A DNA stretch of 64,000 nucleotides from assembly GCF_009914755.1 (NCBI RefSeq), contig NC_060938.1, one strand, 5' to 3'. Under the pieces are notes generated by a model. The model did not search any database, was not told where the DNA came from, and was given only the letters and a program-made list of their open reading frames with translations. Below, piece by piece: positions 11,616 through 42,074 of this stretch. Positions within the stretch are counted from its first letter, which is position 1. Each line of letters begins with the position of its first letter. Origin of the DNA: the human T2T-CHM13v2.0 reference genome, Homo sapiens. Both the position numbers and the translations under genes were made by a program.

Positions 11616-11929
11616 ATACATATGGAAAACTCTTTCTCCTCAATTCTGTGGGTCAAGAGATGTCCCGTTGCAAGACGTCCATTCGGCGTGGTCAGCCCAA
11701 TCCTGTCTATAAGGAGACCTTTGTTTTCCAGGTGGCCCTCTTTCAGCTGTCTGATGTCACGTTGATGATTTCCGTTTATAACAGGCGTACTATGAAGCGT
11801 AAAGAGATGATTGGCTGGATTGCCCTGGGCCAGAACAGCAGTGGAGAGGAGGAACAAGATCACTGGGAGGAGATGAAGGAAACCAAAGGCCAGCAGATCT
11901 GCAGATGGCACACTTTGCTGGAATCCTAG
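11616..11929 (+). CDS. SYT16: Synaptotagmin-16, last coding exon (C-terminal part of the C2B domain)
   Basis: Polypyrimidine acceptor ttttttttttgtcttag|AT. Translation (D)[103 protein letters not shown] has synaptotagmin C2B hallmarks (NPxYxExFxF, terminal WHxL) of the SYT14/16 type. Confidence 0.93.
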
Positions 11930-14900
11930 GTTTGCTAACCTGCATTTGTGTGCTGTGTCCACCTTGGTTACCTGTGTTGCTGTCTACTGACACTAAGTGT
12001 CCTGGCAAGGGTTTCAGGGTTTCAAAAACAGATTCCACTAACCCCTAGGACATTGTGAGTGGGAGTTTTGGGTTTCTCAATGGTCTGATTTGGATTTAAA
12101 TATTGTAATTTTAAAAACACACATACACAGTGAAGTGTCCGTATGGAAAATATTATACCACAATTAAGACCACTGATGAGTTAATTTGTGCCAATAGATC
12201 ATTGAGTTTTAGTTCAGGGTATGGGGTGAAGCTTCTTCTGCTGTCTCTGTTTGCTTGAAGAGTAACCTGAGATTGCAAGGGAGCTGTTAATTGTTACTAT
12301 TTGCAACCATTTAGGTGGATGAATCAGAATTTTCTTAATATGGTACAAAAAACTCCAAAATATAGATATGAATCAGATGCTGAGCCTCATAAAAGAATCA
12401 AACTCTAATCCATAAACTCTTATTTCACATTTTTCTCTTTATCAAAGAAACCTATTTACCTAACGAGTAAATATTATAAACTTGCACTTTTAAAATAAAT
12501 TTGTATTAATTAAATACCTCTTTTATCTTATATTTTGTGGTTTCTATGAGATTTGGTTAGATGAATCATTTTGAAGCAAGAAAAGAGTTCAGAAACTACT
12601 GTTTTAAGACAACTTGTCTCCTTTTGAATATGTAAGATTTCAAACTTGTGACTTTCAAGGTTTTTATGCTGTCTTTCTCACCCAATAAGTTCTTAGAGAA
12701 TAAGAAAACAAAAAACAAGACTACTGCAGTCATAGATTTATTGATTTTTTCTGCTTCTGGTGTTCTTTTGGATTATCCTTTTTCTATGTTCAATTATATA
12801 TACTCATATATGAATATTTTGAATGTACTGCATGTAAACCATGCTCTTTTTAAACTGAGTATTTTCCATCACTAGAGCATAGTAAATTGTACACAGTGAG
12901 TCCTTAATAAATATTGATTTGATTGACTCTTCAAAGTGAACATGTTATAACACCTGTGAATGGAGAAATATTTTCAGCTTGTGTGGAATGACATTAAGTT
13001 TTTCTTTGAGCATTTGAAGTGCCTATAACTGTCATTTTTTTATGGCATTTGCAGCAACATATATTAGTCACTACTTGCAATCTGGGCATGTGCCATTCAG
13101 AATACTGATCTTGTATGGTTATGAGCATGGGATTTTACTTATGACTTAATTTTACATATTTATGCAGTGCATGTTTACTTTCCTTATTCATAGGTCTGGG
13201 CCCTTAATTTCAATTACTTTAAATTGGCATTAATAAAAAAATAGGGAAAGAATGTATGTACATTTAATCCCTGCGCTCAATGTGCAGCTCTTCTGAGCAA
13301 TTGCTCAGTCACCTATTTTTAGTTTCTATGTTTCATTGTGGACTTTTTCCTGTCTGTGGGAAGAGTGATAGCTAGTGATGGCTGTATACAGTTAAAAACA
13401 CATAACTCCTCCTCAGCTCCACGTTTTGACAGATTGTAAGCGTAGGCTGTAACACTTGAAGAACATATTTATTCCTTACAGTGTGTAATGGTTATCCTGA
13501 CAAGACCAGACTAGGGCACAGGATAACTCTACTATGCTTTCAGGGTTCAGTCTTTGAATGAAATGATTTCATATGGAAGAATGAGAATTTGCCAAATAAA
13601 TTAATACCTTAATTACTTTTCAGGTCATGGGAGTTTCATATATATGGCTGCTCAGTTATTAGGAATATGTAATAAAACCATGTTCCTCTGGGTTTTTACC
13701 CTACCTTTCTTTGGGAGATCTCAGAGTGCTTTTCCAGCATTATATCCATTAACTGCTGAGTGGTCTTTGCAGCGTGGCTAAGTCATTGAGTAGAACTGAG
13801 TGCGATTGATTAAGTAGCAGCACAAAGAAGTGGCTTTTCACATCTCTTACTCTTTATGCCTTGTGTTTAAAGGGAAGTAGAACAGCCTCGCTATGCTTTC
13901 CTTTATGCAGTAACATAATAGCAGCATTCATTTTAAAATTTACATTTGAAAAAAATCTGTATATATTGTACAGACAGCCCTGAATTTTTCCCTCTCATAT
14001 TTTCCTGCTGCTGCATCCTTGTTTCTTGGTACCCAATAATCACCTATACTTCATTTTCTGTTCCCAAGACCCACCCATTTTTAAGGTTTTCGGCTAGTGT
14101 AGTGAAGATATTTGTGTGCTTGATCTGCCTTCCAATGGTCTGTTTATGATACAGTTTACAGGAATGCGCACCATTTTAAGGGAAGGAATGCCTGAAAACA
14201 TTTTTTATTTTTATAATTTTACTATGTTGGTGCTACTCACCAAATAGGATGCATGTACATCTTGAATATACAGCAACATTCACCCTCAGCTGATTGTATA
14301 CATTTAAGTGCTGAAGACAAGATATATAACAATATGTGGCTGATTTTTTTTACCTTTATTTGAAATTCTAGTTTAGTAAGATCTTTTGATTTTGTGCACT
14401 TAAACTCCCTTATTTTCTTGGCAAAGTCTAGACACAAATGCATTTAACATGTTTTTCACTTGAGCTTTTACATTTGGTTTTCAAAAGAGTTATGAAAGAT
14501 AATTAGTTGGTTCTGCAGTAAAAAACTGCTTTTGCCTATTTCTTCCAGCTAATGATTAATATCTCATAGGGAGATTTGACATTGAAGCAGCACTGGTTTT
14601 TGTTGCTTGAGTAGGTCTTTCAGCGATTTTGCCTGAAGAGCATGCTTTTAAAATAATATCGTTAAGAGTAAATGATGCGCTGGGTTTATGGAAATCTGCT
14701 TTATAGTGTGCCTTCTTTTAGGGTGTGAGTTTACACTGAATTGAGAAATCCTGATTTCACCAATTACGGTGGTGGCTGTTGTACTCTCTACTCCCCTCTG
14801 ACTATTGTTGAATTTTTAAATGGACCATTCACCAGGCAGCCGAACACCTGCTCTCCGTTCCCTCTCCTTCACTGGCTCCCAGTGTGATGCACAGTTGTTT

Positions 14901-15914
14901 TGGACTCTGTTTTTGCTGATGCTGCATAACTGTTGGAGGTGGGGGTGTCTTGCCTTCCCTAACATAAGAAGAATTTGTAATGTCTTTGGATGTGGCATTC
15001 CACCTGCATGAAATCAGGAAAAGAATCATCACCATGTTTGTGAGAGGGAAAAGAGTATGGCATTGCATAGTCATTCGCTTTAGGCACTATTAATTCTGAC
15101 ATCCTTCATTGAAAATTAACTGACATCAAATGTCAATATTCTCCATAGTCCTAGGTGCCAGTGAGCCTGAAACACAGCTTCTGCCTTTTCAATGTGTAGA
15201 TTTCATGATATTTTACAAATTATTGTTACCTCTTGTGCAGTTACTGTGCTTTAGATGACCTTATCTGAGAACCAAAATTCTTTTCTTTCCAGATGAAGTA
15301 CTATTTAAGTAGAAACTAGCATTAGGTTAAATCAAAGTGCTTCTCTGATAGCCACCAATTTGATTTAATTGATGATTCGGTGTGGACACCACTGTGGGTT
15401 TCCAAAAAAACTGGTTATCCTTTTGCAGCAGAGGACTTAGTATTTTAAAAACAGAAAAGTAAGTAGGAAAGTATTATTTGTAAATGTCATAAAACCAGAT
15501 GGAGGCATATTCTTTACTGATAAAGAAACAGGACTAGAACACGCATGTGGTATCTCCTTTTACTTTTGAGGAAACTGTGGTTAAAGAACATTCTATTCTA
15601 TTTGATCTAAGAGCAAAGCAAATGATGGATAATCCTGAAATGGTAAAAGTATTTTTGTCTTAAAAATTATTCATTTGGGCAAAGTCATTTACAACAAAAT
15701 AAAAAGTCATACAGCACACCTATGGAAGAATTAAAGAATACATAAATGTGCTGGATACATTTAGCATCCTCCAGTGAGTTGTATGTAAGGAGAGTAAACT
15801 AATAAACCAAAATACATATCAGATCAACTAGCTATCACTTTTCTAAAACTTGTAGAATTCTGAAAAATATTTAAAGATGGGAGAAACGAAACTGTGCTAA
15901 GACAATGAGATTGG

Positions 15915-16135
15915 CATAGCACAGTGAAGTTGGCACAAACTGTGATCCTGGCCTGGGTTTACATGAAACTCTGCTGTGTGGCCTTAAGAAAATTACTTAG
16001 CCAGCCTGTATCCTGGTTTCTTCAACTGGAAAATGGAAATAATACCTACCTCATTAGGTGTCTTAAAAGATATCAGTGAAATCACAGATGTAATGTGCCT
16101 AGCATAGAGCCGGGCATGTAGTTAGCATTCCGTAG
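15915..16135 (+). mobile_element. MIR SINE
   Basis: Core GTGTGGCCTTAAGAAAATTACTTA..TTTCTTCAACTGGAAAATGGAAATAATACCTACCTCA..GTAATGTGCCTAGCATAG. Confidence 0.75.
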
Positions 16136-18351
16136 TTCCTCCTTACAGTCATGCCTGAAAAAGAAAATATTTAAGATGTGTCTTCTTTTTCTAGCAAATG
16201 TTATTATAACACTAGAGAAAAACAAAAACCAACGTTCAGATACTGTAACAAGGATAGGCTCATGAAGCCAGGCTGGATTCGTAAATAAAGGAGGCTTCAT
16301 CAGGACAGCCTAATCAGAGATAAGCCTGGTATGTGGAGGAAATTGAGCCTTAATAGAGTCCAACTGTGGTAGAACCAAGTCTTTGCATTTATCCCCTTAG
16401 TTTGGAGGGAGTACAAATCCTTGATGGTTTGTGTGTACCTCTTGATCGATCACAAACAAGGCCTCTCCTTGTCTCCAGTTCTCTTATTCATAAATGGACA
16501 AGGCATCTTGTCGCCTTTATCAAAAGAGTTGGTGACAATGGCAGTTTGACTACATATTTCAACTGTGATCCAAAAAAGTAAAATAAATGATGTGATACTA
16601 TACTGAGACTGTTTTAAAAATGGATAACACTTTCTTTAAAACCTGCATTATATATCCATTTTATATCCTGATAGCCAAACATTTTAAAATACTCTAATAA
16701 CACAGCTCTCAAAACGTATCTGTTTGACTGGAATGTCCTGCTCAGAACAAATTATCACTGTTTCCCTTATGAGATCCTAATGAAAGAAATTCAGTTGATA
16801 CTACTTTTTAAAATGGGTTTTAAGAGTGGCTTGTTGATATAATAGCGCATCCACTTGTTCTCAAGTGATTCAAACCTTGAGTAAAAAGGAGAGTTTCTGG
16901 AGAATTTAGAAGAATCTTTGTTGACATTTAATCTAGAGAAGTCTTCAGGAGCAAACCACTTCAAGTTCAGTGTAACCAGGTGCCATGAGTCAGTCATGTG
17001 CTACTTGTGGTTTTAAACGAAACATGATTCTGGGATGAGAAGTGCGAGGCTACACTCCTAATATAATCAAATTGCCAAAGCACTGTTTTGAGTCCTCGGT
17101 ATCCCAATTAAGGAGAAACATGAAGACATTGGAGAATCACTTAGCTTAGGGCTTTTAGTAGGGAATAATTAAACATGTAGGGAAGGTGAAGGAGTTAGAT
17201 GGGAGGTAAGAAGGCTGAGGAGATTTCTAGTAACAATGATCCAAAAGTTCTAACCAGGGGGATGGTGCACACTTTCTCTTCTTGACCACATGGATAGATT
17301 TCAGAGCATCCCTCTAAATCAAGTCTGGAGAATTATGTGAAGGTTGTTTCTCATTAATTCAAAATGTATTCATTGTCTAGTACTATGCTATCTGGGCTGG
17401 CACAGAACTTAAAATCTCTTTGGAGTGCTATGAGTGCACATTGAAGCAGTTGGTCATCATTATACAATGATGCTTACCAATATACAACTGTTAAGTTAGT
17501 CTAACTATGTGCCATAAACAGTAGAGTTCCTTGTTACTAGTATTGGAAGGTGAAACATTGGCTGAATTTATTGGGGCAAGTGTCTAGGAAGCCTTGGACT
17601 GGCAGTGAGTCTTGGTTGCATTATATGGGAAATTGGTGGGGATGGGGGTGTCATAGAATCATCATCTTTGGAAGTTTTTTAAAATAGAAAAATGTACTTG
17701 AAGTCTTGGTTCTGCTAAAGAAGAATGAGAGGACACCCATGAATATACCCTTTATAAAGTTCCTTCTAATATTTAGGTGTAACGTTAAAAAAGAATCAAC
17801 AATAACACTCCAGGCCTGTCTTCTTCCACTTTGGACATTTTTTCCACATTGATTTTTCTCTGCATCATAGAAAGTTTTCTCTGAAGAGTTCCTATTTGGG
17901 TTTTGTTTAGGGCTTTGGGGATGCCTGCAGGCTCAGGGGGAGTTTCCTCTCCTATGGTGCTTTGACTGTTTTTGTTTCCCTTGGGTCACAAAACCATATC
18001 CTAGACACACAGACAATAATCACCTTATTTATATCCACTGTGGAACCTGTGAAACAGCTCGAGGCTTTACAGAACAAGCTCATAGGCAGTCATGGAGATC
18101 TGAGGCCTTTCTTGGAATGAAGCCGCTAACTTGCTAACTGCTTTCCATTGCTCACTAATGCTGCCTTAAGGTTTCTTCATGGGAATTTTTACTTCATGCC
18201 TTTGAGTGACAGTGTTACCAGTTTTACCTTGAGGATGATGAGAAGGCTGACTTCCTATTGTATTGCCATATTTATGCATTATTTTTGTTTACGTCATTTC
18301 CCCCTTGAAGTATCTAGTTGCTGGGGTTTTGTTTGTTTTATACAAAATTTA

Positions 18352-18670
<319 letters not shown>

Positions 18671-20094
18671 AGACCTTTTTAAGTGTAAATGTTCCAGACT
18701 CAGGGTTAGGGGTTGGAGAATGGCAGATGGATAAAATAGTTTAAGTTCAACAATATTTTTTTGTTGTTTCTAAATATTCTTTTTAAAAACTAGAGTCTGA
18801 TAAGAAATCTAGGTAAATAATAAGATCTTTTATTAACCTTGAATTTTTGGCTTAATGTATTTCTGTAATTGTCTCTTTCCCCCTTTGAAAGGCAGAAGAT
18901 TTAGGGAAGGTGAAAGTTATTACCCTGTATCTAATTAAGAAATAGGTACACTTGTTTGTCAGTCTATGCTTTCATTCAAAATAAATGGATATGTTTTGTA
19001 TCTGGGGGAGGAAATGCATCATTCCATTCCAGCAGTGAAAAGAATTATAGCATCAAATAGGATATTTAGTATTCTTGACTTTTATAATTAAATACTGAAT
19101 GCCCTTTGCAAGACAGTAAGTTAGATCCTGGAATGCTAGGTCTGTACAAACTTGACACATTTCTTACAAGCTCTGTGTTTTAATAGTCAAAGGCATTGCT
19201 ACCCTTTGCTTTTTGAAAGAGTGAACTGGTAACAGTAGCCGCCAGAGAAAGAGGTGACAATCTAAACAAAGAGCCCTGCTTACCTTTCTGTGACTAAAAC
19301 TAGTCTTAAAAACTGAATACATTTGGGGCATCCTTATGAAATAGGTAAAGGTCAACATTGGGAGTGTCCCTACCTTGGCAGATAGACCAATACTTTTTTC
19401 CTAGACTCAACCCATTTTTAAAGCAGGAGTTTTTCCAATGGATTTATTGTTTATAATTCTACTAAACATGTCTTAGTCCACGCAAATTAACTCAAAATCT
19501 TTGGTGGCCTGAAAATTCTGACTGAAAGCAAGTTTTTCGTGTTGCCCAGTTGATAGTCCATAATAAAAAATGTACATATCTTGTTTACAAAAGACCTTGA
19601 TGTTTGAGAAGAAATATCGGAAGTCTGCCAGTAAAAACTCTGATTAAGTGAGGAACATGTACATTAAAAGATATTTTCATGTAAGTTATTTTAAGATAGT
19701 TGCATTCTAGGACCATGTTTCTTTTTTGAGAGTGTTTCTTTGTCAAGTTCCTTATAGCCAATGCCTTGACCAAAGCTTACTAATTTTGCCACATTTCCTT
19801 GTGGGTTATGATAATCTTTATTAATTCACAACTCTACCAAATTATAATACAGTCTTTTATTATGCCACCATATGAATGCAGCTGCAAATTCAATTTTGTG
19901 AAATACAAAGTCCTTTCCAGAATTTTAAAACTTAATTTCAGTATAGATTTTAAGTTTGTGAATAAGAAATTAGTATTTGTATACCTTATTATGACAGAGG
20001 TTTCTGTTACAATATTTTCTCTTATAGTGTTGGGATAGGATTTGACCTGTATTTTCAGGTTAAAGCTGGTCTTTGAGATCTACTTTTTAAGAAA

Positions 20095-20620
20095 TTAATA
20101 AATTTTATTTTTTAGAGTTTTAGGTTCACAGCAAAATTGATCCTAAAATATAGAGTTCTCATATACTCCAAACACAACCTTCTTCCCCGTGAACATTTTG
20201 AACACCACAGTGCTATATTTGTTACAACTGATGAACCTTCATTGACATAACATTATCACCCAAAGTGCATAGTTCATATTAAGGTTCACTCTTGGTGTTG
20301 TGTATTTTATGGGTTTTGACCAATGCACAATGACGTGTGTCCACTATTGTAGTATCATACAGAAGATTTTCACTGCCCTAAAAATCCTCTGTGCTCTGCC
20401 TATTCATTCCTCCCTCCCACCTAAGCCCTGGCATCCACTGGTCCTTGTACTGTCCCCAGAGTTTTGCCTTTTCCAGAATGTCATACAGTATGTAGCCTTT
20501 TCAGATTGGCTTTTTTTTTTTTTTCACTTAGGGATAGTCATGTAAGTTTTCATGTCTTTTTATGGCTTGATAGTTCATTTATTTTAAGTGCTGAATAATA
20601 TTTCATTGGTTGTATCACCA
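20095..20620 (-). mobile_element. L1M-class 3' end fragment
   Basis: TTTTAGGTTCACAGCAAAATTGA..CATTATCACCCAAAG..TCACTCTTGGTGTTG matches antisense old L1 3' UTR. Confidence 0.75.
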
Positions 20621-24765: not shown

Positions 24766-26504
24766 TGGTAAGACTCTTGTTAAGTCAGTTAAGTTATGGC
24801 ATACTTACATTTTTAAAAAAATTATTTGAAATGTTGTGGTACTGGTGATTATTTATGAAAAGCTTATTGGTTGCTTAAGTTCTTTCTAACCCATGACAGC
24901 ACTAGAACACTATGGGCTGATTAAGGGTTCTACTTGTACTTTTACATCCATAGTCACCTTAGACTTAGACCATTTCAACACTTGAAGGAGCATTGTTGCA
25001 AATAAAGACTATTTGAGTTCACATTTCCAAAGCCACAGGGCAAAGAGTTTTGAGCTAGTAGGCTGAGCAAGATTGACCATTTCTACATGTGTATGTGCAC
25101 TAGTAGGTACATACATATATGGCATACTGAAAACATTAAAGCAAATATATGAGCAAAAGAAGAATAATGCAGAAGAAACATTTTTCCATATATGAATCTT
25201 AGAGTATGTCATCTGGAGAGCTTAAACTTGGCAAATGATTGCTATCTTGTGGCATTGCTTCAACACAGGCTTACCCATGCTGAAATGTTAAAATAATTGA
25301 GACAGCCATCTATGACTCTGGTTCTTTGGTTCTTTTTTTTTTTTTTGTCTTTTGTAGTAATTAAAAAATTGTGCTGTGTAGCATTTTATTGATAAGTCAA
25401 ATAAGTCAAATCACATTATATGTATTGTAAGCTTCATAGTCTCCTTACAGTTTCTCTGGGGTTGCTCCAGAAAGATTCAGAAATATGGCTCAAGGGGAAG
25501 CTTGGGTGACATTTCACAGTGCTGATAAATTTTAATGTGCATTCCACTACATAATAAAACATCTGATTCTTTTCAGTAAACAGATAAGAAGTAGGAGACA
25601 GGATTGGCATTATATCTATGGTCATGTCGAGGAGGGACAAGATTGAGTGGTGAGAAGATTAGAATTTGGATAGATTCTAAGGTAGGTAGTATGGAATTTT
25701 AATATGTATTTTAAAATCCAAAATTGTTTAGTGAAAGATTCTAATCTTACAAGGAGAATTGCAGAATTTATCCAATTATATATGCAGACATAAATAACAC
25801 AGTCGAGATTAAAATCATACCTGTTTTCTAATTCCAGTTATGCCATCAAGGAATCCTGTGATCTTGGATTACCTTGACCTTTCTTTCGTGTCTTCCAACA
25901 TCTGTTATATCTTGAGGTAGTCCCAGAGGAGGAGGGGACTTGGCAATTATTTGTTGATTTAAACTGACAATAGTAAAGATTTCCTAGTCCATTCAGATAA
26001 AGTATAACACTAGACATACCATCCATACTGGTCAAATTACCTAGCTGCTCCCAAATACATTTTTTTCTCCATAAGATATAGCGTGTTGTTATGGAGGCTG
26101 CTTTTACCTGAGGTAGAGGAGTATTTTAAGGAAAAATGAAACCGTTCATCTCGGAGGTCTCACAACCACTTTAGAGGGTGTGGAAAGACAAGAATTAGGA
26201 AAATATATAAATGACTTTAGGTGAGTATTTCCCAATGCTATTAAAATGCAGGTAGTGACCTTTATAAGATGTTTTGAAAAGGAAAAAAAAAAGTCACTTT
26301 ATAAACACAATGTCTCATTAAGGGAAGAAAACTATTTTCTGTATAACAGGCTTTCCCCCAGCTCCCTTCTTCTGCTTGAGTAACTGTAAAGACAGCAACT
26401 AGTGGCTGCCTTCAAGGTTAGTGTAAGTTCATGAACTGATAGCTACGTAGCTAAGGTGAAAACAGGGACCTCAAACCAGGCAGGGTGGATTCATCTATTC
26501 CCAG

Positions 26505-27822: not shown

Positions 27823-27859
<37 letters not shown>

Positions 27860-27999
27860 CTGAGGCCCCCTGCCAGTAGGCAGCCACAGACAACGCCAAA
27901 AGGAATTAGACTCTGGGCTGATTTTTATGGATTAGTTAACATATCCCTCCTCAGAATCTATCAAGTGCTCAAACCTGCAGACACAAACACGAACACACT

Positions 28000-28920
28000 A
28001 GGGAGGAGAGTCCCAGAAGGCGGAAGATCCCGTACTGCTCATCCCCAAACGCCTCACCCCGGGTCACACCCACGAACTCATCCGGTTCTCCCTTCTCAGG
28101 GTCCTACTCCAAGGCGAAGAGTATCCCAGAGGAAGGGTCAGGGTCTTAAAAAAAAAAAAAAAAAAAAACACTGAGCCAAACCCCGCTGCTTCCTCAGCCG
28201 CTGAAAGTGCCGCCCCACCCCTCTCCCCAAACCCGACCTCCGTAGGGGACACCGAGCCAAGGCCTGCAGCGAGTGACCTGCCCGGGGAGGCGCGGGACCG
28301 AGGCTCACCTACCCGGGCCCGCGAGTCTCGCCCAGCCCCAGCCTCCCAACCCACTCTGCCGGCCCCAACTTAGGCGAGCGCAGTCGGGACCCTTCTGTCG
28401 GGGCTCTTTGTTCGCCGCCCCTCGGCGTTCCAGCTCTCAACCTTGCTCCCAGCAGCCCCCGCCGGCGCACTCGACCTACAGGAAAGTTGCTCCCGAGCTG
28501 TGGAGGGGCGTCATCGCCTCCTAGCAACGCTCCTAGCAACCGGGTAACATCTGCTCCCTGTGGTCCAATGCGAGCTGAGAACAGCTGCGCGCCCGCCTAG
28601 CGCTGCGAACCCGGAGTGAGAGGCGCTTCAGAGACTGGAGGGACGGACCTGCAGGAGCCAGGGCTGCCCGCCGAGCTGCAGTTGCCGCTACTGCCGCTGT
28701 CAGCGCCCGACTGAAGAGTGACAGCCGCAAAAGCAGGAGTGAGCACCGAACCCCGCGCTTCTACCTAACAGGTGCATGCGCCGATCTGGTGAGTGGACCC
28801 AGCTCACAAGGTATGTCTGGATTCATCCAGCCAGGTGCCTTCCTCCGAGCTCAGAAGGGACTCCTTTCCTTGAGGGGGAGGATAGGGACGTGTTCCGGGA
28901 TCCCACCCCGCCCCCAACCA
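28000..28920 (+). promoter_or_regulatory. CpG-island promoter and first exon of the downstream + strand transcript
   Basis: The only GC/CpG-rich segment in the window. It has a CCAAT box (28565-28569), tandem CCTAGCAAC RFX half-sites (28520-28540), and donors TCTG|GTGAGT (28788/28789) and CAAG|GTATGT (28810/28811). Confidence 0.85.
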
Positions 28921-29912
28921 CTGAAGAGTAGCCAGCTGCTGGTCCCAAATGACCTGATTCGATTTTTTAAATGTAAACCTTAGGATTGGTTCTTGGGTGA
29001 AGAGTCCGCTGCTCTTCGCTATTAGGTTAGCGTTCGGAAGTTTTCAGTCCTTGTTTTCCCGTTGACTTCGCTGCCTATGTGCAGCTAGGCTGGAAGCAGC
29101 AATCGCTGATAGAAAGCCTGTGGTTAAAGCTCAAACGACATAGTGTAGTCTCGACTAATTGAATCAACACGTATGGATAGCAACATTCTTTTTAGGTCCT
29201 CCTCTGGAAAGGGTCCATTTGGCCAAGAGCACTGTTCACTGTTACTCAACCTCCTGAAAAGTAACCATAGTAACTCACCTCTCTTTTGATGGGATCCTCC
29301 TTATTGGCTGCCTATCTTCCTTTGGAAAGCGCATCTCTCTAAATTTAGAAGATGATGAGATCCGTAAGCATACATCCATGTAGAAAAGGTGCAGTTAAAC
29401 ATGGCCCTTTAAAGAAATGCTGTCTTCAAAGAAAAAGTAGCATTTGGCGATTTCAAATCTTGTGAGAAAGAATGTGCATTCCAAAGAAAGACGGGGTTCG
29501 TGTTTTGAGCTAACTGCTGGTTTGTTACTTTAGAGGGAATACTTCCTGAAATTATATAAAATCTGGCATTAAAACTTAAGAATGACTCTGATTTTTTTAA
29601 AAAAATATCAGCCTACTGATAATCTTCCAAAAATAATCTCCCAAGTAAATAACTGGTAAGATGAGTTATTCAGTTATTTCCAAATGTCTTAGGATAGTTA
29701 AGATTCCTTATGTTTAAACTTAAATCTGGACAACACTGAAGTGATTGTGTGTGTTTGAAGGTTTATCTATCTATCTAGTCCAGACCAACCCCATCTCAAA
29801 TATCTTAGATAATATCCTCCTGCTGCAGGCTTTCTCCTGACTTGAGAACCAGTTCATGTCAGTGCAGTCCTGACTCGCCCGATGTTATTTGTGTCTGTCT
29901 CCTTGTTTCAAG

Positions 29913-30036
29913 ATCTCAGGTAACCATTCATGAGCCTGAGGCTGTGAGAAATGCTCGCTGTGCAAAGGGGAACTCTCACCAGATTTTCTGAAGCTGTTCT
30001 AGAAATACACTTTTCGGATTGATTCAGCATTACCAG
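29913..30036 (+). other. Candidate internal exon (possibly the decayed first coding exon of the SERTAD4-like gene)
   Basis: Acceptor tgtctgtctccttgtttcaag| and donor CCAG|GTAATT; all three frames contain stops. Confidence 0.45.
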
Positions 30037-32552: not shown

Positions 32553-32900
32553 CTTTTATGTTCACGGGTACCTGTGCAGGACTGTTACACGGGTGAATTG
32601 TATGCCACTGGGTTTGGTCTACAGATTATTTCACCACCCCCATAATAAGTGTAGTACCTGAGAGGTAGTTTTTGTATCCTCACCCTCCTCCCTCAAATAG
32701 GCCCCTGTGTCTGTTCTTTGCGTTCATGTGTACTCAGTGTAGCTCCCACTTATAGATGAGAAGATGCAGTATTTGGTTTTCTGTTCATGTGTTAGTTCTC
32801 TTAGGATAATGGCTTCCAGCTCCGTCTATGTTGATGCAAAGGACATGATTTCATTCTTTTTTTATGGCTGTGTAGTATGGCTGTGTGCTATTCCATGGAA
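32553..32900 (-). mobile_element. Older primate L1 3' end
   Basis: GGGTACCTGTGCAGG..GCTCCCACTTATAGATGAGAAGATGCAGTATTTGGTTTTCTGTTC..GCAAAGGACATGATTTCATTCTTTTTTTATGGCTG. Confidence 0.85.
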
Positions 32901-34194
32901 GCACCTATATAGCTCTTTAGCGAAAAGGTACCCTGTGAATGAAAATTATTTCACCACTAGAGCAACTCCAGGTGAAACACAAATCAGATACCATATGAGT
33001 GAGGGCAGAGAGTCACCCAACTCCACGCGAATCCTCATGTGTTTTAAAGTGAGTAAAATTAATGATTAATTCAATCTTATGTTTTTTTACAACCCTTTTG
33101 GGATAGCAGAAGCAACGTTGGCGTGGATAGATGTTTTTGTTAATATACTCAAGCATGGAGTGGTGGTGGTAGTGATATCAAAGTGGAAGACAATGTGAGT
33201 GATATAGATCAGGTACTTTTAGAAAGGCTGCTATTATCCATAGGTTAGGGATTAAAACTCTTTTCTTTGAGTACCAGTCCTGGGTATCGAGGGAAGTTGT
33301 AGTATCTCTCTAGCATATCTCTAGGTATGGATTTCTTGGAACCCATATACTGCAATGTGCTTCCAAAAAAGCAATTTTCTTTCTAATTCATTTCTACTTT
33401 CCAAGGTAAAAGATGGGGTAAAAGGAAGCATCATTCCTCAGAATCAGGAATGCACTTCTAGGGGGTGGAAAATCAAAAAGTTTACCCAAGAAGCCTCCTG
33501 CACTTCGCCTCTAAATTTCTGTCATTAGCAGGGCCAGATCACGGCAGCAACTGGCTTTAGTGCAGCATCTAAGGAAACCTAATGGTGTTCTGTTTGGTTC
33601 AGAGACCATTACCATTGGAGCAGGATAGGCTTGTGGAACTGGTGGGGTTTTCTTTACTATTCCATGCCTGTGCTTGGGGTTATCCCAAGGGACATGGATG
33701 CAATCTAGTACCAGACAATGCTGCTGGTATCTTGAGAAACTCTTCTAAGTCATTGGCTCTCAGTATTCCTGGAAGTTCCTAAGAAAGTCTGCTCGAGCTG
33801 GAACTTGTTAGTAATTCTAAATTGCCAGTAAAGTCAATATTGTGCTTGGGGTGGATAAATCTGAAGAAACAGATTGCTCCATTGATTTGGAGATAAAACC
33901 TGACACTGAGCTCTGCTACCATAAAGGATATTATCCAGAAAGGTGATAGGCAAGGGGGTTATGAGAGAGAAGAAAGATGGCTGATGGAAAATTGTTAAAC
34001 ATCAACAGAGCCAAAGGTCTCCAGAAGGCACAGCATCATAGCCTTGAACTTTGCACCCATCTACCTTCTTGAATACACTCATGAATGCTTCATGCAGCCC
34101 ATGCTTAGCACTAAAGAGAGGACCAATGTCCTAGGTATAATATAATGCTGCTGAGCAGGATATGTACTTATGATTTCAAAATGAAGTCACTGCA

Positions 34195-34415
34195 ATAATA
34201 ATACGTAACATTTACTGAGCAGGAAATATGAGCACATGTGACAGGCACTGAGTAACTGCTTTTTAAACATCATCTCTTCTAATTCCAGTAAAACTCAATG
34301 AGTTTGGTATTGTCCCCCCGTTTAACAGATAAAGAAAAGTTAGGCTCTTTGAGTTTAAATATCTTGGCCAAAGTCAGTAAGCAAATAAACTGTAGAGCTG
34401 GTATTTGAACTAGTG
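34195..34415 (-). mobile_element. MIR SINE
   Basis: ACATTTACTGAGC..TTTAACAGATAAAGAAA..CTTGGCCAAAGTCA..GAGCTGGTATTTGAAC. Confidence 0.7.
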
Positions 34416-35874
34416 CCGTTGGACAGAACTAGAAGGTTATGCTGAAGTATTTCAAGCCATGCAGTGAGACTGCAGAATGTGGTTAGCAGGGACAGATGGG
34501 GTAACTCTTTCTAATCAACTGTGGTCATGGCCCTTAAGGAAATATCTCCAGTAGCTTTGTCACCAGCAAATCATTATTTAGCTAGATAGGGACAATTGCA
34601 CTTTTAAAGGCTCATGCCAGGCTAACATGTTACAAAGAAAAATCAGTAAGACATTGTGAAGCTGAGGTGCCTGATTTATCTTTAACACAAGTCAGTTGTT
34701 GATCTGAGATGGAACCCACCTTCTTTCTTGTCATTGATCAGCCTCCACCCCTTCTGTCTGTGGGTAGGATGCACACATCTAATAGGATGGTTTCAACTCT
34801 GTTTTTGGAATGTTTTGATTTAAATGTTGTGGGGGGAAAAATGAAAGCCAAACTAAAATTAGGATATATTGAACTGATCACTTCTTCACCATGTCTCCAG
34901 CTTTGAGTCTTGACAAAGAATGGATTGCTTTGACAGGAGTTGTTCTTTTTACTGTGGTCTGTTATCTCAAAGTGTTTGTAAATTAATTTGCTGATGATGT
35001 TTCCTTAATGTACTGTCTCCAGACCATGTACCAAATGAAATCACTTACACCGTAATAGGATTTCAGTTTTCTGGAGGCAGAAGCAGAGCAATGAGGAAGA
35101 GCATTTGAGCAATCATTTGTAATTACATTTTAAACATTTATTTAAAGAATTATATAAAAATTATATTGCTAGAACTCTAATGACAGGGATGGTCACTCTG
35201 TTCTGTAACTTTTAATTTGTTGGTTATTTATGTTTTATACTACCAAATACACTGAGCTTGGCACAGATATTTTATGGGCCCAGAGGATATAGCATTAGAA
35301 ACAGCTTGAATATTCAAGCCATCATTAGCCATTTCACTTTCAGAGACAAATTTAGGCTCAGCCTAATTCAGTTTTGTAATTTACATACTGTTCTCAGAGC
35401 TCAGAACACTCAGAATGTGAAGACATAAAGTCATTTCATTTTTTTTCTTGTCTATTTCGTCATCTTTATTTGAATAATAGGCTGGGTTAAGTTTGGCCTT
35501 TTAGTTGCAGGAGAACTATAACAGATTTACACATGTTTACTGAATCATAACAACCAAACTTCTTTGGATAGTCAGATCAACTTTAATTAATTATCCAGAT
35601 GATTACCTGTATGTTTCAAAAATAGTTTACACCTCCTTCACCCAAAATGCATGACCAGTGGCAATACACCAGAAATATTTGGAGTTGTTATAGAATCTGT
35701 ACTACGTTTTTTCAACTTGATCATTTGCAATATCTTCTTGCAGTTTTTTTTAACTGTCTAATTACAATCTAGTATCTTTGGGAGGCAGGGTGGTGGAGTC
35801 TTTGAGTCAGAGCTAGGAGGCCAGGCTGGGCTCTGCTTCTATGTGGTAGATTTGTGACTAATGGCACAAATAAG

Positions 35875-36095
35875 GTCTACAATTTGATTGAGTGTTTACT
35901 ATATGCTAGGCACAGTGCCAGTCACTTTCCATGAATTATTTCAATGATCTTATGAGCCAGTGTTATTTCTATCCTTACTTTACAAATGAGATTTCTAGAG
36001 AGTTTATGTAATTTGCTCAAAGTCACTCAAATAAGAAGCAGCAGAGCTGGAATTCAGACCACTTCCATCTGACTTCAAAACCCAAACTCATAGCC
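35875..36095 (-). mobile_element. MIR SINE
   Basis: ATTGAGTGTTTACTATATGCTAGGCAC..TTTACAAATGAG..TTTGCTCAAAGTCAC..GCAGAGCTGGAATTCAGACC. Confidence 0.75.
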
Positions 36096-37181
36096 ACGTG
36101 CCAGAATGTAAATTATTGAACTCGTCTGGGCTGTAGTTTTCTCATCTGGACACTGAGGAGGCTGAATCAGGTGATGGATACATAGTTATCAGCTCCGAAT
36201 GTTTTGAGTTCTAATCCAGCCAAGCAAACAGATGTAGGAACTTATGTTTGCTATATATTTTAACCTAAAAGTGGCTAGAACCATCCTCCAAAATTGATAC
36301 TGAAAACATTTTAAATAGCTAAACAGCTTTCAGGGAGATAATTGTCAAACTGATACCAGCTGTGAAGGCTTTTCAGCATTTTAACAACCCATGTGGGTAT
36401 TTTTTAAGAGCAATAAACTAAATGGCTAAGTGTGTTGCCCACGGAGGAGCTGAGACTCAAATCTAGAACTCCTGGGAATTTTCTCTGTATTTTCAGGATC
36501 TGATACATTCAGTATATTAGGCTAATTGGTTGATGATAGCCAGACAGTCTTTATGAACCTTGGAATCATTTGATATGATTTTTTTGGTCTTGATCTGTCA
36601 AATAAAAATATCTTTCCTGGAGGTACACTTGGGATCCAGAACTATAAGTTTATTTGTCATTTGGTTCTCTAATCTGCCACCTGCCTTCCCTTGTATTACT
36701 CATTAAAAGATTCTTAATTGGTCATAAATGCTGTAGATATTGCATTACATTGGAAGATAAAATGAGCAGACATTTTAAAAAGATACATATAAGAAAGTCA
36801 TGTTTGCTCATGATGAAGTTACTCATCTCATTTTCTAGCCTTTTCTCACTGTCACCTACACTATAGTAATTCATTAGAGCTTGTTAAAAAAATTAGAGAC
36901 CTGCCCAGCTATCATGCTAATAATAGCCATTGATGCTTCTCAATGTGAACCCAGGAAAAGTGACTTCATTCTTCACTATTTAGTTAAAATGCAGTCTGGC
37001 TTTGTTCATGAGGCTAAAGCATCTAAGCCAGTGTAGGGAAGCAATAGCAACAACAACAACAATCAATCAAACCAATTGCCTGGCATTCTATTGATATGGC
37101 AATCAGCTGATTGACTGAATGTTCTGCTCTTAACTTGTTGCCATAGTGCTACTACTACACCTGCTGAATGCTGCAACCTAG

Positions 37182-37365
37182 AGGCTCTCAAAATGCAATC
37201 CCCAGACTGGCAGCATCAGCATCACCTGGAAATTTGTTAGAAATGCAAATTCACTGCTGCTAGCCCAGATCTACTGGATTAGAAACTCTGGGGGTGGGAC
37301 CCAGCAATTTGATTTAACATACCCTCCAGATAATTCTGATGCTCACTAACATTTGAAAACTACCA
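37182..37365. mobile_element. MER5A-like hAT-Charlie DNA transposon
   Basis: GCAGCATCAGCATCACCTGGAAATTTGTTAGAAATGCAAATTC..GAAACTCTGGGGGTGGGACCCAGCAAT..ATTCTGATGC. Confidence 0.85.
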
Positions 37366-39017
37366 TTACATCAATTAGTGAAACAGTTTAAAAAAAAAGT
37401 ACAAGTAATTGTCACACGGGATAACCCAAAGCTTCACCTAATTATTTGATTAAATCCTTAAAAAATATACCAAAGAAAATGCAGTTTACTAAAAAACAGC
37501 CCCTGAGAAACCTGGTTTCAGTGATGCTTTCTTTGTTCTCTCTACAATCAGCTTTGTTCTTCTTTCCTAAACTTTTGAAATCATTGAAAACTCTATATAA
37601 GCTGAGTTTGCTTACTGAATTCAGGGACTGTGTAGGTATAGTAGTAGCAACTATTGTCTTTGCTTCAGTTCACTTGTGAATTATCATGACATATTCATTT
37701 CTTTTAAGATCAGATACACCACTGTTTTAAAATTCTTCATTCCCTTAACAAAACATAACAACTATAACTTAAGGCTTTCTTGGGTTAATAATCCACAGTG
37801 ATGTCAGTGGAAAACTGGAATGCTTGGGAATGATTTTGTAGCTTTTCTTACTGACTGAGGAAAATCATTTAGCTACAAAAAGTTGCGGGAAGCTTTTGTA
37901 GCTTAGATGCACTGAGTTGGAGGACAAACTAGAAAAAGCAAATTCTTGAACACATTTAAAATATTTAAGCTTAGAAAAATTTAAGATTTTAGAGGAAAAC
38001 CATCAAATGTCTTGCTGTAGATTTATTTAACTAACACATACATTATTCATTCTTTTGTGAACTAAATGGTTTCAACACATAGAAATATTTGAGGATGTGT
38101 ATTAAGGGTAAAATAAATTATGTTTAAATATGAAGTTTCTTTCTGGCCTGGTCCCCCGAGGTTGAATGAGAATTGAACTGGACTCAATTTGTTTTCTAAA
38201 TTCATTCAGTGCTTTCTCTAGAAGCTGCTTGTCTTTAGCTTTGAAAGTAGATCTTGCCTCCTTTTTGTGATATGAGTGCCACCTAGAGTACACTCTGAGA
38301 ACTCCCTTAAGCACTATCGTTAAACTAAACGATAACTGAAAATTGGCTTTTGGAACTCCGTCCTTCCTTAAGCAAGTAAGAACCTCAGTAGCAATCGTAT
38401 TTTAAAGGAGAAAACAAAGGTCTTCACTTTCAGTATTATGACAAGGTCAAGTTTGCAAGTCAGAACGTTACCTAAATCTTTCATTTACTTAGAACACCAT
38501 TAAACCATGTGTTAGGACGATGGCTACACCATAATCATATCATAGAGTGTTTTGTCTACAGATACACCATTATTTCTTTAAAGTGTAATTGGGCTGCCAA
38601 CTATTTTATGCCAATTTGATTAACCTAGTGACACTAAATGATCTCTCTGTATTAGGCAGTTTAACTAAAAGAATGATGAAAAATTTCTTTTCTCCTCCCA
38701 TTACATTCCATTTCAAATTTGGGTGTGTTTTGACATTAAATGGCATGAAATAAAATAGTATATTGGTATTTGACTTCTGAGGGGCTGCATAAGGAAATAA
38801 ACATGAGTATCCTATCTAGAACATCTGTTTTGGGTCTGAATGGTGGTATTTTCCTGCCTGCAGGCTTTTCAATCCAGGGCAGTTGTCACTGCTTCACCAC
38901 GTTGAAGGGAGAATACCAATTTCCAGGATCACCAGTTTATTTTTATAGATAAAAGTTATATTATAAGATACTATTTGCCACAATAAAATCTAACCTTTCC
39001 CCAATTATTTTGTTTAG

Positions 39018-39133
39018 CTTATCCAACAAAAGTATTAACATATACATTAACAACGTCGAAAGTAGCCTACTTTAAGAGAAAATATGCAGAAGAAGAAGAT
39101 TTACATCAAGATTACCATGGGTATTTTCCAAAA
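39018..39133 (+). CDS. SERTAD4-like coding (or formerly coding) exon, 116 nt, phase 1 to phase 0
   Basis: ttattttgtttag|CT TAT CCA...TTT CCA AAA|gtaagg. Open frame xYPTKVLTYTLTTSKVAYFKRKYAEEEDLHQDYHGYFPK aligns without gaps to the recalled SERTAD4 segment [39 protein letters not shown]. Confidence 0.8.
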
Positions 39134-39243
39134 GTAAGGGTTTACTTATTATTATTTGTTCATTTTCATGAATGTTGTCAACATAAAAAGCTGTAGTTTT
39201 TGTTTTTCTAAATATAGATTTAATGATCATGTTTGCTTTCCAG

Positions 39244-39618
39244 CACCTGATATTACCTGAGGACAGAACTTGCATTCTCAAACTTTCTCTGGAGAAGCTC
39301 AGGTTTCTTGAAGACCCAGAAACCTACTTAAGAAGGTCTGTGTTAATTAACAATTTGCTGAGGAAGATACATCTAGAGACGGAGAAAGAGAGCTATGAAT
39401 ACTTTAAAGAAGCTCCCTGTTATAAGACTGCATATTCTGATACAAGAAAACGGCTGAAGTTTATGGTACAGGAATGCTGTTCTCAGTCTCTCTATTATGA
39501 AGAGCTGCATTCGTATCATATTGTGCCTTATGCTTCGGAGAATGCCATTTATGAAATGGGCTACACTAGCAGCCACTTGGAGCAAAATTCTCAGTTGCTT
39601 ATTTATAAAATGAATTAA
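39244..39618 (+). CDS. SERTAD4-like terminal exon encoding a SERTA domain (124 codons plus stop)
   Basis: Acceptor gtttgctttccag|CAC in phase 0. [38 protein letters not shown] carries the SERTA signature (SLxKL...LRRSVLIxN) and matches recalled SERTAD4 [38 protein letters not shown] at 26/38 positions. Confidence 0.85.
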
Positions 39619-41932: not shown

Positions 41933-42074
41933 TTTCTTTTTTTTTTTAAGTTCTAGCGTACATGTGCAGAATGTGCAGGTTTGTTATATAGGTATACACG
42001 TGCCATGGTGGTTTGCTGCACCCATCAACCTGTCATCTACATTAGGTATTTCTCCTAATGCTATCCCTCCCCAG
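41933..42074 (-). mobile_element. Short 5'-truncated L1PA 3' end
   Basis: T-run then TACATGTGCAGAATGTGCAGGTTTGTTA..GGTGGTTTGCTGCACCCATCAAC..TCTCCTAATGCTATCCCTCCCC; CCAGTG occurs at both ends. Confidence 0.88.

What the first reader, a model, noticed from the sequence alone, without database searches (positions are those of the whole stretch)
11616..39618. Gene order suggests an ohnologue: SYT16 plus SERTAD4-like mirrors SYT14 plus SERTAD4
Seen: the SERTA exons lie on the same strand directly downstream of SYT16, behind their own CpG island. Known (recalled): SERTAD4 lies directly downstream of SYT14, the closest paralogue of SYT16, on 1q32 with KCNH1 nearby, while SYT16 neighbours KCNH5 on 14q23. 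Inference: both blocks come from one ancient duplication, likely vertebrate whole-genome duplication. The high amino-acid identity then implies long purifying selection, so any loss of coding function must be comparatively recent.
Basis: partly seen in the sequence, partly recalled or inferred. Interest (0 to 1): 0.85.

Follow-up and report, generated by a model that had tools for sequence, protein, structure and literature searches.

The report
SERTAD4B relic beside SYT16: ancient ohnologue
Just downstream of human SYT16 lies the transcribed remnant of SERTAD4B, an old vertebrate duplicate of SERTAD4 whose reading frame is almost unchanged but has no start codon; databases already name it as such, so it is a tidy confirmation, not a discovery.

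Summary
SYT16's last coding exon (C2 domain) is followed on the same strand by the window's only CpG island and by SERTAD4BP. Exons 3-4 of SERTAD4BP keep an open 162-codon frame with a SERTA motif and a UPF0730 domain.

- In the same genome the order and strands SYT16(+), SERTAD4BP(+), KCNH5(-) on chr14 mirror SYT14(+), SERTAD4(+), KCNH1(-) on chr1. Both lie in a wider chr1/chr14 paralogon (PPP2R5A/E, VASH2/1, PROX1/2).
- Both SERTA genes have a 116-nt exon flanked by phase-1 and phase-0 introns, which excludes a retrocopy.
- 4B-type proteins occur from shark, coelacanth, bichir and teleosts to mammals and form a 100/100 clade apart from SERTAD4.
- Nesting the human copy inside mammalian SERTAD4 is rejected (p-AU 1.4e-5).
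- The human frame matches camel at 161 of 162 residues, so any loss is recent.

In human no AUG precedes the SERTA motif, and exon 2 carries three in-frame stops.

Synteny in non-mammals could not be tested here. HGNC (SERTAD4BP) and Ensembl (transcribed unitary pseudogene) already encode most of this. No paper I found states the ohnology.

The parts
11616..11929 (+). Last coding part of SYT16 (end of the C2B domain)
   Evidence: Frame from 11618 is open. Pfam C2 E 7.5e-12. Best paralogue in the genome is chr1:209399348-209399656(+), 84% identity.
27901..29100 (.). CpG island, promoter of SERTAD4BP
   Evidence: Only stretch of the window with GC >= 0.55 and CpG o/e >= 0.6: 8 windows, up to 44 CpG per 500 bp.
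28520..28572 (+). Promoter-proximal motif: CCTAGCAAC twice, then CTGTGGTC
   Evidence: Sequence. Gene models from a turtle-like protein (P0002), bichir (P0017) and a teleost-like protein (P0015) translate the homologous DNA in two different frames. The SERTAD4 CpG island on chr1 has the only CCTAGCAAC of that 20-kb locus, followed 15 nt later by CTGTGGTC. This is a post-hoc observation.
28579..28810 (+). SERTAD4BP exon 1 (non-coding as annotated)
   Evidence: Frame 0 is open for 77 codons, has no ATG and ends in phase 1, so it is compatible with exon 3. A pangolin model (P0038) joins the homologous exon end directly to exon 3.
29913..30036 (+). SERTAD4BP exon 2, with three in-frame stops (TGA 29931, TGA 29937, TAG 30000) and no in-frame ATG
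   Evidence: It is 47.5% identical over 40 aa to the N-terminal part of the Crocodylus (P0003) and Alligator (P0011) models, where the frame is open.
39018..39133 (+). SERTAD4BP exon 3: 116 nt, phase 1 at the 5' end and phase 0 at the 3' end; encodes ...TTSKVAYFKRKYAEEEDLH...
   Evidence: Homologous to the 116-nt exon of SERTAD4 at chr1:209478177-209478292 with the same phases. It holds the only non-repeat DNA-level match between the two loci (58 nt, 77.6%).
39223..39243 (+). In-frame ATG (39223) inside intron 3; would give a 131-aa ORF with SERTA and UPF0730
   Evidence: An unnamed database protein (P0014, 79 aa) starts with the same [15 protein letters not shown].
39244..39618 (+). Coding-like part of exon 4: SERTA motif 39274-39378, UPF0730 39472-39609, stop 39616-39618
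   Evidence: Pfam, PF06031 genome scan. The stop is at the same position as in tetrapod orthologues, which end ...LLIYKMN.
39553..39555 (+). GAA (Glu): the only residue that differs from Camelus ferus
   Evidence: G in 10 of 10 other mammalian rows and in 19 of 22 tetrapod rows; E in none.
39619..45409 (+). Rest of exon 4 (3' untranslated as annotated)
   Evidence: Annotation given with the finding. tblastn with SERTAD4 finds no counterpart of its 186-residue C-terminal tail.

Best explanation
The region holds the 3' end of SYT16 and, 4.5-4.8 kb behind its annotated transcript ends (23770 or 24045), a separate transcription unit driven by its own CpG island: SERTAD4BP (formerly LINC00643). This is the human remnant of SERTAD4B, a short SERTA-domain gene. 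Its protein has a variable N-terminus, a KRKY/acidic motif, the SERTA helix hairpin, a UPF0730 C-terminus, and none of the long SERTAD4 tail.

SERTAD4B arose together with SYT16 and KCNH5 when the ancestral SYT-SERTAD4-EAG block was duplicated before the jawed-vertebrate radiation, most likely in one of the vertebrate whole-genome duplications. After a burst of change (long stem branch, loss of the conserved SERTAD4 N-terminal exon and of the tail) it came under very strong purifying selection in tetrapods.

In human the conserved 162-codon core is intact, but no AUG-initiated frame reaches it, so it is annotated as a transcribed unitary pseudogene. Any loss of coding is recent.

Shown here: domains, exon structure, human synteny, the clade and its taxonomic breadth, and the near-identity to camel. 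Inferred: WGD as the mechanism, the timing of loss, and the function of the protein in other species.
For: Domains: SERTA and PF15827 both above cut-off.

Paralogy within the genome:
- exon 4 matches chr1:209480254(+), E 2.9e-10;
- exon 3 matches chr1:209478197(+);
- the SYT16 exon matches chr1:209399348(+), 84%;
- a KCNH exon query hits chr1:210353057(-) and chr14:57224448(-).
Order and strands are therefore the same on both chromosomes.

Wider paralogon: B56 genes at chr1:211.57 Mb and chr14:57.6 Mb, among 5 intron-bearing loci. Prospero domain only at chr1:213.25 Mb and chr14:69.06 Mb. Vasohibin only at chr1:212.2 Mb and chr14:70.98 Mb.

Gene structure: both genes have a 116-nt exon with a phase-1 intron before it and a phase-0 intron after it.

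Age: outside that exon there is no DNA similarity apart from interspersed repeats (1 of 19 blastn HSPs). 4B-type proteins are named from Cetorhinus, Latimeria, Erpetoichthys, many teleosts, frogs, squamates, crocodilians, birds and mammals. SERTAD4 proper is found in the same groups, plus two hagfish proteins of SERTAD4 type.

Tree: 4B clade 100/100; SERTAD4 on one side of a branch at 74/85 with hagfish as root. SERTAD4 monophyly is not rejected when outgroups are included (p-AU 0.37). Nesting in mammalian SERTAD4 is rejected.

Constraint: 161 of 162 identical to Camelus ferus, about 90% to crocodile and turtle-like rows, about 80% to two frogs.

Literature (passages read): SYT14/SYT16 share a gene structure, and invertebrate genomes (e.g. 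Capitella) hold orthologues of Syt16 (PMC2823689). KCNH1/KCNH5 are attributed to 1R/2R, with synteny SERTAD4-HHAT-KCNH1 and SYT16-KCNH5 in shark, mouse and human (PMC13398235). Ensembl biotype is transcribed_unitary_pseudogene, and the rabbit homologue lies between SYT16 and KCNH5 (PMC7555810 supplement).
Against: Synteny of the 4B gene in non-mammalian vertebrates was not examined, because no vertebrate genome other than this one is held.

SERTAD4 monophyly has only moderate support (74/85; 76% of bootstrap trees). With human SERTAD1/2/3/CDCA4 as outgroups the root fell inside ray-finned-fish SERTAD4. I read that as a long-branch artefact, but it means the root is assumed, not shown.

The trees used hand-picked subsets of the hits.

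HHAT lies between SERTAD4 and KCNH1 on chr1 and no counterpart was seen on chr14.

N-termini of the 4B gene models differ in nearly every species. The ancestral start codon is therefore unknown, and 'loss of the start in human' is not demonstrated as an event.

No nucleotide sequences of orthologues were available, so dN/dS was not computed.
Confidence: 0.8

Rival explanations
1. The block SYT-SERTAD4-KCNH was copied by a regional (segmental) duplication in the vertebrate stem, not by whole-genome duplication.
For: The three adjacent pairs alone would fit a single segmental event. The tree dates the split only as 'before crown jawed vertebrates'.
Against: Paralogue pairs extend over about 4 Mb of chr1 and about 15 Mb of chr14. 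These include two families whose only two genomic loci are on these arms (HPD, Vasohibin), plus B56. That is the pattern of a WGD paralogon. KCNH1/5 are ascribed to 1R/2R in PMC13398235 (passages).
Confidence: 0.1
2. The human locus is not dead. The intact 162-codon frame is still translated, from a non-AUG codon, an unannotated 5' exon, or the in-frame AUG at 39223 in retained intron 3. 'Pseudogene' would then be an annotation artefact caused by an unknown N-terminus.
For: The frame is intact, with conserved splice sites, phases and stop position, and 161 of 162 identity to camel. No consistent start codon exists in the models of any species, so lack of an obvious AUG is not specific to human. 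An in-frame ATG at 39223 gives a 131-aa ORF, and a database protein P0014 starts there. The CpG island is retained and brain expression is reported (PMC7549351 passage). One proteomics table lists UniProt Q86TS7 with count 1 (PMC6798591), which is very weak.
Against: There are three in-frame stops in exon 2 and none of the N-terminal solutions used elsewhere is open with an ATG in human. The single human change, G to E, hits a residue that is G in all 10 other mammalian rows, as expected under relaxed constraint. RefSeq, HGNC and Ensembl all class it as a pseudogene (annotation given). My one literature search on translation of LINC00643 returned no paper naming it among the 10 listed.
Confidence: 0.2
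3. Exons 3-4 are conserved because the RNA itself is the functional product (a conserved lncRNA), and the open frame is incidental.
For: A preprint reports tumour-suppressive effects of LINC00643 and of its 'highly conserved Exon 3' expressed alone, interpreted as lncRNA action on HIF1A (10.1101/2025.09.16.676559, passages).
Against: The conserved stretch corresponds exactly to Pfam protein domains. It keeps frame, intron phases and stop position from fish to human and has a protein-coding paralogue with the same exon structure. In the passages searched, the preprint does not mention SERTA or pseudogene (0 occurrences each).
Confidence: 0.05
4. SERTAD4BP is a retrocopy or a recent mammalian duplicate of SERTAD4.
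For: None beyond the shared SERTA motif.
Against: Introns are retained at homologous positions and phases. Orthologues reach sharks and teleosts. The AU test rejects nesting in mammalian SERTAD4 (p 1.4e-5).
Confidence: 0.01

Closest known systems
SERTAD4 (human chr1, 1q32)
   Same: SERTA motif; the preceding TTSK(I/V)xYFKRKYxEEED motif on a 116-nt exon with identical intron phases; an RKR...CC...Y.E region after the SERTA motif; its own CpG island; position downstream of a SYT14/16-type gene on the same strand.
   Different: Only 45-62% identical in the alignable 97 residues. SERTAD4 has a conserved MTLVLSM... N-terminal exon and a 186-residue C-terminal tail, and neither has a counterpart in the window. 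SERTAD4 proteins carry no PF15827 in the precomputed Pfam column. The intron after the 116-nt exon is 1949 nt against 110 nt.
SERTAD4B-type proteins of other vertebrates (variously named 'SERTA domain-containing protein 4-like', 'SRTD4', 'UPF0730 protein', 'sertad4')
   Same: Same domains, the same stop position in tetrapods, 58-99% identity over 162 columns, one 100/100 clade.
   Different: The human copy has no AUG-initiated frame, has three stops in exon 2, and has a unique G-to-E change. Models in other species each have a different N-terminus.
Ohnologue pairs of the 1q32-q41 / 14q23-q24 paralogon (SYT14/SYT16, KCNH1/KCNH5, PPP2R5A/E, VASH2/1, PROX1/2)
   Same: Same two chromosome arms and, for the three adjacent genes, the same local order and strands.
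   Different: In the other pairs the gene names are recalled, not given by a tool, and only their locations were seen here. This is the pair in which one member is annotated as a human pseudogene.
Human unitary pseudogenes listed in PMC7555810 (e.g. CMAHP, FMO6P)
   Same: Listed there as LINC00643, with Ensembl biotype transcribed_unitary_pseudogene.
   Different: No frameshift or stop occurs in the conserved core. The rabbit 'coding homologue' used in that paper is only a 156-bp model.

Membership tests
SERTA-domain (SERTAD / TRIP-Br) family | SERTA motif, Pfam PF06031, above the gathering score | tested here: met
   52.3 bits against a cut-off of 25, E 4.4e-14. It is one of 6 strong PF06031 loci in the genome (E 4.3e-11 or better); the other 4 of the 10 matches are 2 CDCA4-like pseudogene loci and 2 weaker, uninspected matches on chr1.
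SERTA-domain (SERTAD / TRIP-Br) family | Complete AUG-initiated reading frame, i.e. a functional gene | tested here: not met
   No in-frame ATG lies upstream of the motif in the annotated transcript, and exon 2 has stops at 29931, 29937 and 30000.
SERTAD4B orthologue group | UPF0730 (PF15827) C-terminal domain after the SERTA motif | tested here: met
   88.2 bits, profile 1-47 of 47. By my count 58 of the 90 hits carry PF15827, and no SERTAD4-named protein listed does.
SERTAD4B orthologue group | Falls in the 4B clade, not in SERTAD4 | tested here: met
   Clade support 100/100 and 100 SH-aLRT. The alternative is rejected at p-AU 1.4e-5.
Ohnologue (WGD-derived paralogue) of SERTAD4 | Both copies lie in paralogous blocks with conserved order and orientation | tested here: met
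   Human only.
Ohnologue (WGD-derived paralogue) of SERTAD4 | Duplication predates crown jawed vertebrates, with both copies in cartilaginous and bony fishes | tested here: met
   4B type: Cetorhinus, Latimeria, Erpetoichthys, teleosts. SERTAD4: Callorhinchus, Carcharodon, Mobula, Heterodontus, Latimeria, Erpetoichthys, teleosts. SERTAD4 monophyly is only 74/85.
Ohnologue (WGD-derived paralogue) of SERTAD4 | DNA-level duplication (shared introns), not retroposition | tested here: met
   116-nt exon with phases 1 and 0 in both genes.
Ohnologue (WGD-derived paralogue) of SERTAD4 | 4B gene syntenic with SYT16 and KCNH5 in non-mammalian vertebrates | not testable with these tools
   No non-human vertebrate genome is held. 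Only rabbit is known, from a supplement.
Ohnologue (WGD-derived paralogue) of SERTAD4 | Single pre-duplication gene in invertebrate chordates | not tested
   No amphioxus or tunicate sequence was identified among the hits. The two hagfish proteins are SERTAD4-like.
Unitary pseudogene | Orthologues functional in other species and a disabling lesion in human | tested here: inconclusive
   The core is under strong constraint in other species, and human lacks an AUG and has exon-2 stops. However, the true start codon of the orthologues is not established.

The most novel reading that the evidence does not exclude
SERTAD4B is still a working protein-coding gene in humans. The untouched 162-codon core (161 of 162 identical to camel) would be translated from a non-canonical or unannotated start. 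The biology now ascribed to the 'lncRNA' LINC00643 and its 'conserved exon 3' would then really be that of a small SERTA-domain protein, one of the most conserved members of its family.
Probability: 0.15. Interest if true: 0.7.

Novelty: new member of a known kind. Interest (0 to 1): 0.38.

Why it matters
It adds a gene pair (SERTAD4/SERTAD4B) to a well-known vertebrate paralogon. It also explains why a transcript studied as the brain lncRNA LINC00643 has strikingly conserved exons: they are the coding exons of an ancient SERTA-domain gene.

The case is odd in one respect. The protein core is conserved at about 90% between human and crocodile, yet the gene is annotated as dead in human and was not found named in Mus or Rattus.

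It also flags an annotation problem. 4B genes are named inconsistently (SERTAD4, SERTAD4-like, UPF0730, 'LINC00643') and their N-termini are unresolved in all species.

The core facts are already implied by the HGNC name and the Ensembl biotype, so the gain is modest.

Tried and rejected
- One search failed because the frame was wrong (stops in the translation). Coordinates were corrected.
- tblastn with SERTAD4 found no counterpart of its first coding exon or its tail in the window; all other hits had E >= 0.67.
- A PAS_9 Pfam scan of the genome found six other KCNH-type loci but not the chr1 and chr14 ones. It was replaced by an exon query, which found both.
- Rooting with human SERTAD1/2/3/CDCA4 gave very long branches and put the root inside ray-finned-fish SERTAD4. 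I judged this unreliable and used hagfish as root.
- The first 'careful' tree did not finish, and a quick tree was reported instead.
- No solved structure is related by sequence (best E 0.58).
- The AlphaFold model of the 124-aa part is confident only for the SERTA helix hairpin (pLDDT 84-91 over residues 11-40; mean 65.7, pTM 0.38). No fold search was run on it.
- Rfam gave no match in the window.
- Literature searches for SERTAD4B/SERTAD4BP, SERTAD4+SYT14+synteny, SERTAD4+'unitary pseudogene' and SERTAD4+paralog/WGD found no paper on this relationship.
- The one paper listed for 'SERTAD4BP' showed no occurrence in the part of its text that is held.
- A search for translation evidence was too unspecific to help.
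- An attempt to align the koala model's start codon with the human exon-2 end was not convincing: the aligned human codon is CGG.

Full report
**1. What is in the sequence**

The frame from 11618 to 11926 on the + strand is open and matches the Pfam C2 domain (E 7.5e-12). This agrees with the annotated last coding part of SYT16.

The only CpG island of the 64-kb window spans about 27901-29100: 8 overlapping 500-bp windows with GC >= 0.55 and o/e >= 0.6, and none elsewhere. It contains exon 1 of SERTAD4BP.

All three annotated SERTAD4BP introns have canonical GT and AG ends. Exon 3 (39018-39133, 116 nt) and the start of exon 4 (39244-39618) splice into one open frame of 162 codons. The exon-4 part matches Pfam SERTA (E 4.4e-14) and UPF0730/PF15827 over the whole 47-position profile (E 3.3e-25). 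Rfam finds nothing in the window.

**2. State of the human copy**

In the frame that joins exon 3, exon 2 has stops at 29931, 29937 and 30000. The last stop lies 11 codons before the splice junction, and no ATG follows it.

Exon 1 is open in the phase compatible with exon 3 (77 codons) but has no ATG, and a TGA immediately precedes it.

An in-frame ATG lies inside intron 3 at 39223 and would give a 131-aa ORF. An unnamed database protein (P0014) starts with exactly this sequence.

tblastn was run with the N-terminal segments of 36 4B-type proteins, and 10 gave hits at E <= 0.01:
- The crocodilian models read the homologue of exon 2 as coding: 47.5% over 40 aa, with three stops and a two-codon gap in human.
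- A turtle-like model reads the exon-1 region, where human has a stop.
- Camel and one unnamed model read a 5' extension of exon 3, which is frame-shifted in human.
- A vole model uses a segment at 33854-33940.

Nearly every species' model has a different N-terminus. No N-terminal solution is open with an ATG in human, but the true start codon is not established anywhere.

**3. Paralogy inside the same genome**

Exon 4 has one significant paralogue in the assembly, chr1:209480254-209480514(+) (E 2.9e-10, 44%); the other five matches have E > 1. Exon 3 hits chr1:209478197-209478271(+).

The SYT16 exon hits chr1:209399348-209399656(+) at 84%. It also hits a chr4 copy at 72%, which PMC2823689 describes as a retroposed SYT14 pseudogene.

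Reading the chr1 locus gives SERTAD4 with three coding exons of 175, 116 and 780 nt. Its 116-nt exon is entered in phase 1 and left in phase 0, exactly like SERTAD4BP exon 3, and the following exon starts at the homologous residue. A retrocopy is thereby excluded.

Protein identity to SERTAD4 is 62.5% over 24 aa and 45.2% over 73 aa. No counterpart of SERTAD4's first coding exon or of its C-terminal tail exists in the window. At the DNA level, 18 of 19 blastn matches between the loci are interspersed repeats and one is 58 nt of the 116-nt exon. The split is therefore old.

A KCNH exon query hits chr1:210353057(-) and chr14:57224448(-). The order and strands are thus SYT(+), SERTA(+), KCNH(-) on both chromosomes. 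The distance from the SYT exon to the SERTA exon is 78.5 kb on chr1 and 27.1 kb on chr14.

Further along the same arms:
- B56 genes lie at chr1:211.57 Mb and chr14:57.6 Mb.
- The only two Prospero-domain loci lie at chr1:213.25 Mb and chr14:69.06 Mb.
- The only two Vasohibin loci lie at chr1:212.2 Mb and chr14:70.98 Mb.

The gene names for these loci are recalled, not given by a tool.

**4. Relatives elsewhere**

A full HMMER scan gave 169 proteins at E <= 1e-3, 13 of them at E <= 1e-30. The word-indexed search gave 90 hits, many with source names. Identities below are over the 124-aa exon-4 query.

| Group | Examples | Identity |
|---|---|---|
| Mammals | Camelus, Phascolarctos, Myodes, Loxodonta | 99, 96, 95, 93% |
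| Crocodilians | Crocodylus | 93% |
| Birds | several | 85-91% |
| Squamates | Podarcis, Crotalus | 86, 84% |
| Frogs | two species; a third | 81%; 68% |
| Shark | Cetorhinus | 64% |
| Coelacanth | Latimeria | 61% |
| Teleosts | many | 42-56% |

Erpetoichthys also has a 4B-type protein. By my count 58 of the 90 hits carry PF15827. None of the SERTAD4-named proteins listed does.

SERTAD4 proper was found from mammals to Latimeria, Protopterus, Erpetoichthys, teleosts and four named chondrichthyans. Two hagfish proteins are of SERTAD4 type. Several species have both genes: koala, Ascaphus, Latimeria, Erpetoichthys.

**5. Trees**

All trees used hand-picked subsets chosen for taxonomic spread and named sources. 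The remaining hits were left out.

- With 43 rows (20 4B, 21 SERTAD4, 2 hagfish; LG+G4, careful search, hagfish root), the 4B clade has 100/100 support. SERTAD4 is one side of a branch at 74/85, found in 76% of bootstrap trees.
- With four human outgroups added (47 rows, quick), the 4B clade is again 100, but the outgroup attaches inside ray-finned-fish SERTAD4 on very long branches.
- The AU test does not reject SERTAD4 monophyly on that data set (delta lnL 1.24, p 0.37).
- It rejects a clade of the human sequence with mammalian SERTAD4 (delta lnL 333.85, p 1.4e-5).
- The first tree (56 rows) was a quick substitute for an unfinished careful run and agrees on the 4B clade.

The 4B stem branch is long (1.48 changes per column) while tetrapod 4B branches are short.

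**6. Constraint**

Over the 162 human columns, identity is 99.4% to Camelus ferus and to one unnamed sequence, 93% to koala, 89.5% to Crocodylus, 90.7% to a turtle-like row, about 80% to two frogs, 67% to the shark and 58% to Conger.

The single human difference from camel is Glu (GAA, 39553-39555). The other 10 mammalian rows, and 19 of 22 tetrapod rows, have Gly at that position. This supports long, strong purifying selection and a recent loss, if there was a loss. It cannot distinguish 'recently dead' from 'still alive'.

**7. Literature**

Passages only were read, unless stated otherwise.

- PMC7555810 lists LINC00643 among human pseudogenes with a coding homologue in rabbit and none in mouse or rat. 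Its supplement gives the Ensembl biotype transcribed_unitary_pseudogene. It places the rabbit model, only 156 bp long, between SYT16 and KCNH5.
- PMC13398235 reports the syntenies SERTAD4-HHAT-KCNH1 and SYT16-KCNH5 in shark, mouse and human, and ascribes KCNH1/5 to the early vertebrate duplications.
- PMC2823689 groups Syt14 with Syt16 as duplicates sharing a gene structure.
- The preprint 10.1101/2025.09.16.676559 treats LINC00643 as a lncRNA whose 'highly conserved Exon 3' is its functional part. It has no occurrence of 'SERTA' or 'pseudogene'.
- PMC7549351 notes brain-enriched expression.
- Searches found no paper that describes SERTAD4B or its ohnology with SERTAD4.

**8. Verdict**

SERTAD4BP is the human remnant of SERTAD4B, duplicated together with SYT16 and KCNH5 from the SYT14-SERTAD4-KCNH1 block before jawed vertebrates diverged, most likely by whole-genome duplication.

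Three points remain open:
- synteny in non-mammals, which was not testable here;
- the root of the SERTAD4/4B tree;
- whether the human copy is truly untranslated.

Nomenclature (SERTAD4BP) and the Ensembl biotype already carry most of the message, so novelty is modest.

Noticed in passing
window 28520-28572; chr1:209472401 (locus L014): The SERTAD4BP promoter has CCTAGCAAC twice, followed 17 nt later by CTGTGGTC. The SERTAD4 CpG island holds the only CCTAGCAAC of its 20-kb locus, followed 15 nt later by CTGTGGTC. Gene models from a turtle-like, a bichir and a teleost-like 4B protein translate the homologous DNA in two different frames, which suggests a promoter element conserved at the DNA level. 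The motif resembles an RFX half-site (recalled).
   Followed up: partly
window 39018-39133: The 'highly conserved Exon 3' that a 2025 preprint calls the functional part of the lncRNA LINC00643 is the 116-nt coding exon that carries the TTSKVAYFKRKYAEEEDLH motif shared with SERTAD4. In the passages searched, the preprint mentions neither SERTA nor pseudogene.
   Followed up: partly
window 33854-33940 (+): An exon-like segment is 73% identical over 30 aa to the N-terminus of the Myodes glareolus 4B model (P0001). In human it has no ATG and is not in the annotated transcript.
   Followed up: no
window 25893-25952 (+): Weak similarity (57% over 21 aa, E 0.005) to part of the N-terminus of the Pontoporia 4B model, upstream of the CpG island. 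It may be chance.
   Followed up: no
G000 chr4:71505730-71506032 (-), locus L010: A third copy of the SYT14/16-type last exon (72% to SYT16). PMC2823689 describes a retroposed SYT14 pseudogene on chromosome 4.
   Followed up: partly
G000 chr9:14603361-14603465 and chr1:86393195-86393275 (loci L022, L023): SERTA-motif matches that translate as near-copies of the CDCA4-type ORF on chr14:99.26 Mb. They are probably processed CDCA4 pseudogenes. Two weaker matches at chr1:206.9 and 207.0 Mb were not looked at.
   Followed up: partly
protein hits: [quoted passage not shown] Their predicted N-termini disagree. No Mus or Rattus 4B protein appeared, although vole, woodrat and jerboa ones did.
   Followed up: no
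window 39244-39615 (model mb7aefaaabd50): AlphaFold with 34 aligned sequences predicts a confident helix-turn-helix for the SERTA motif (residues 5-21 and 25-56; pLDDT 84-91 over residues 11-40). It gives only low-confidence short strands for the UPF0730 part.
   Followed up: no
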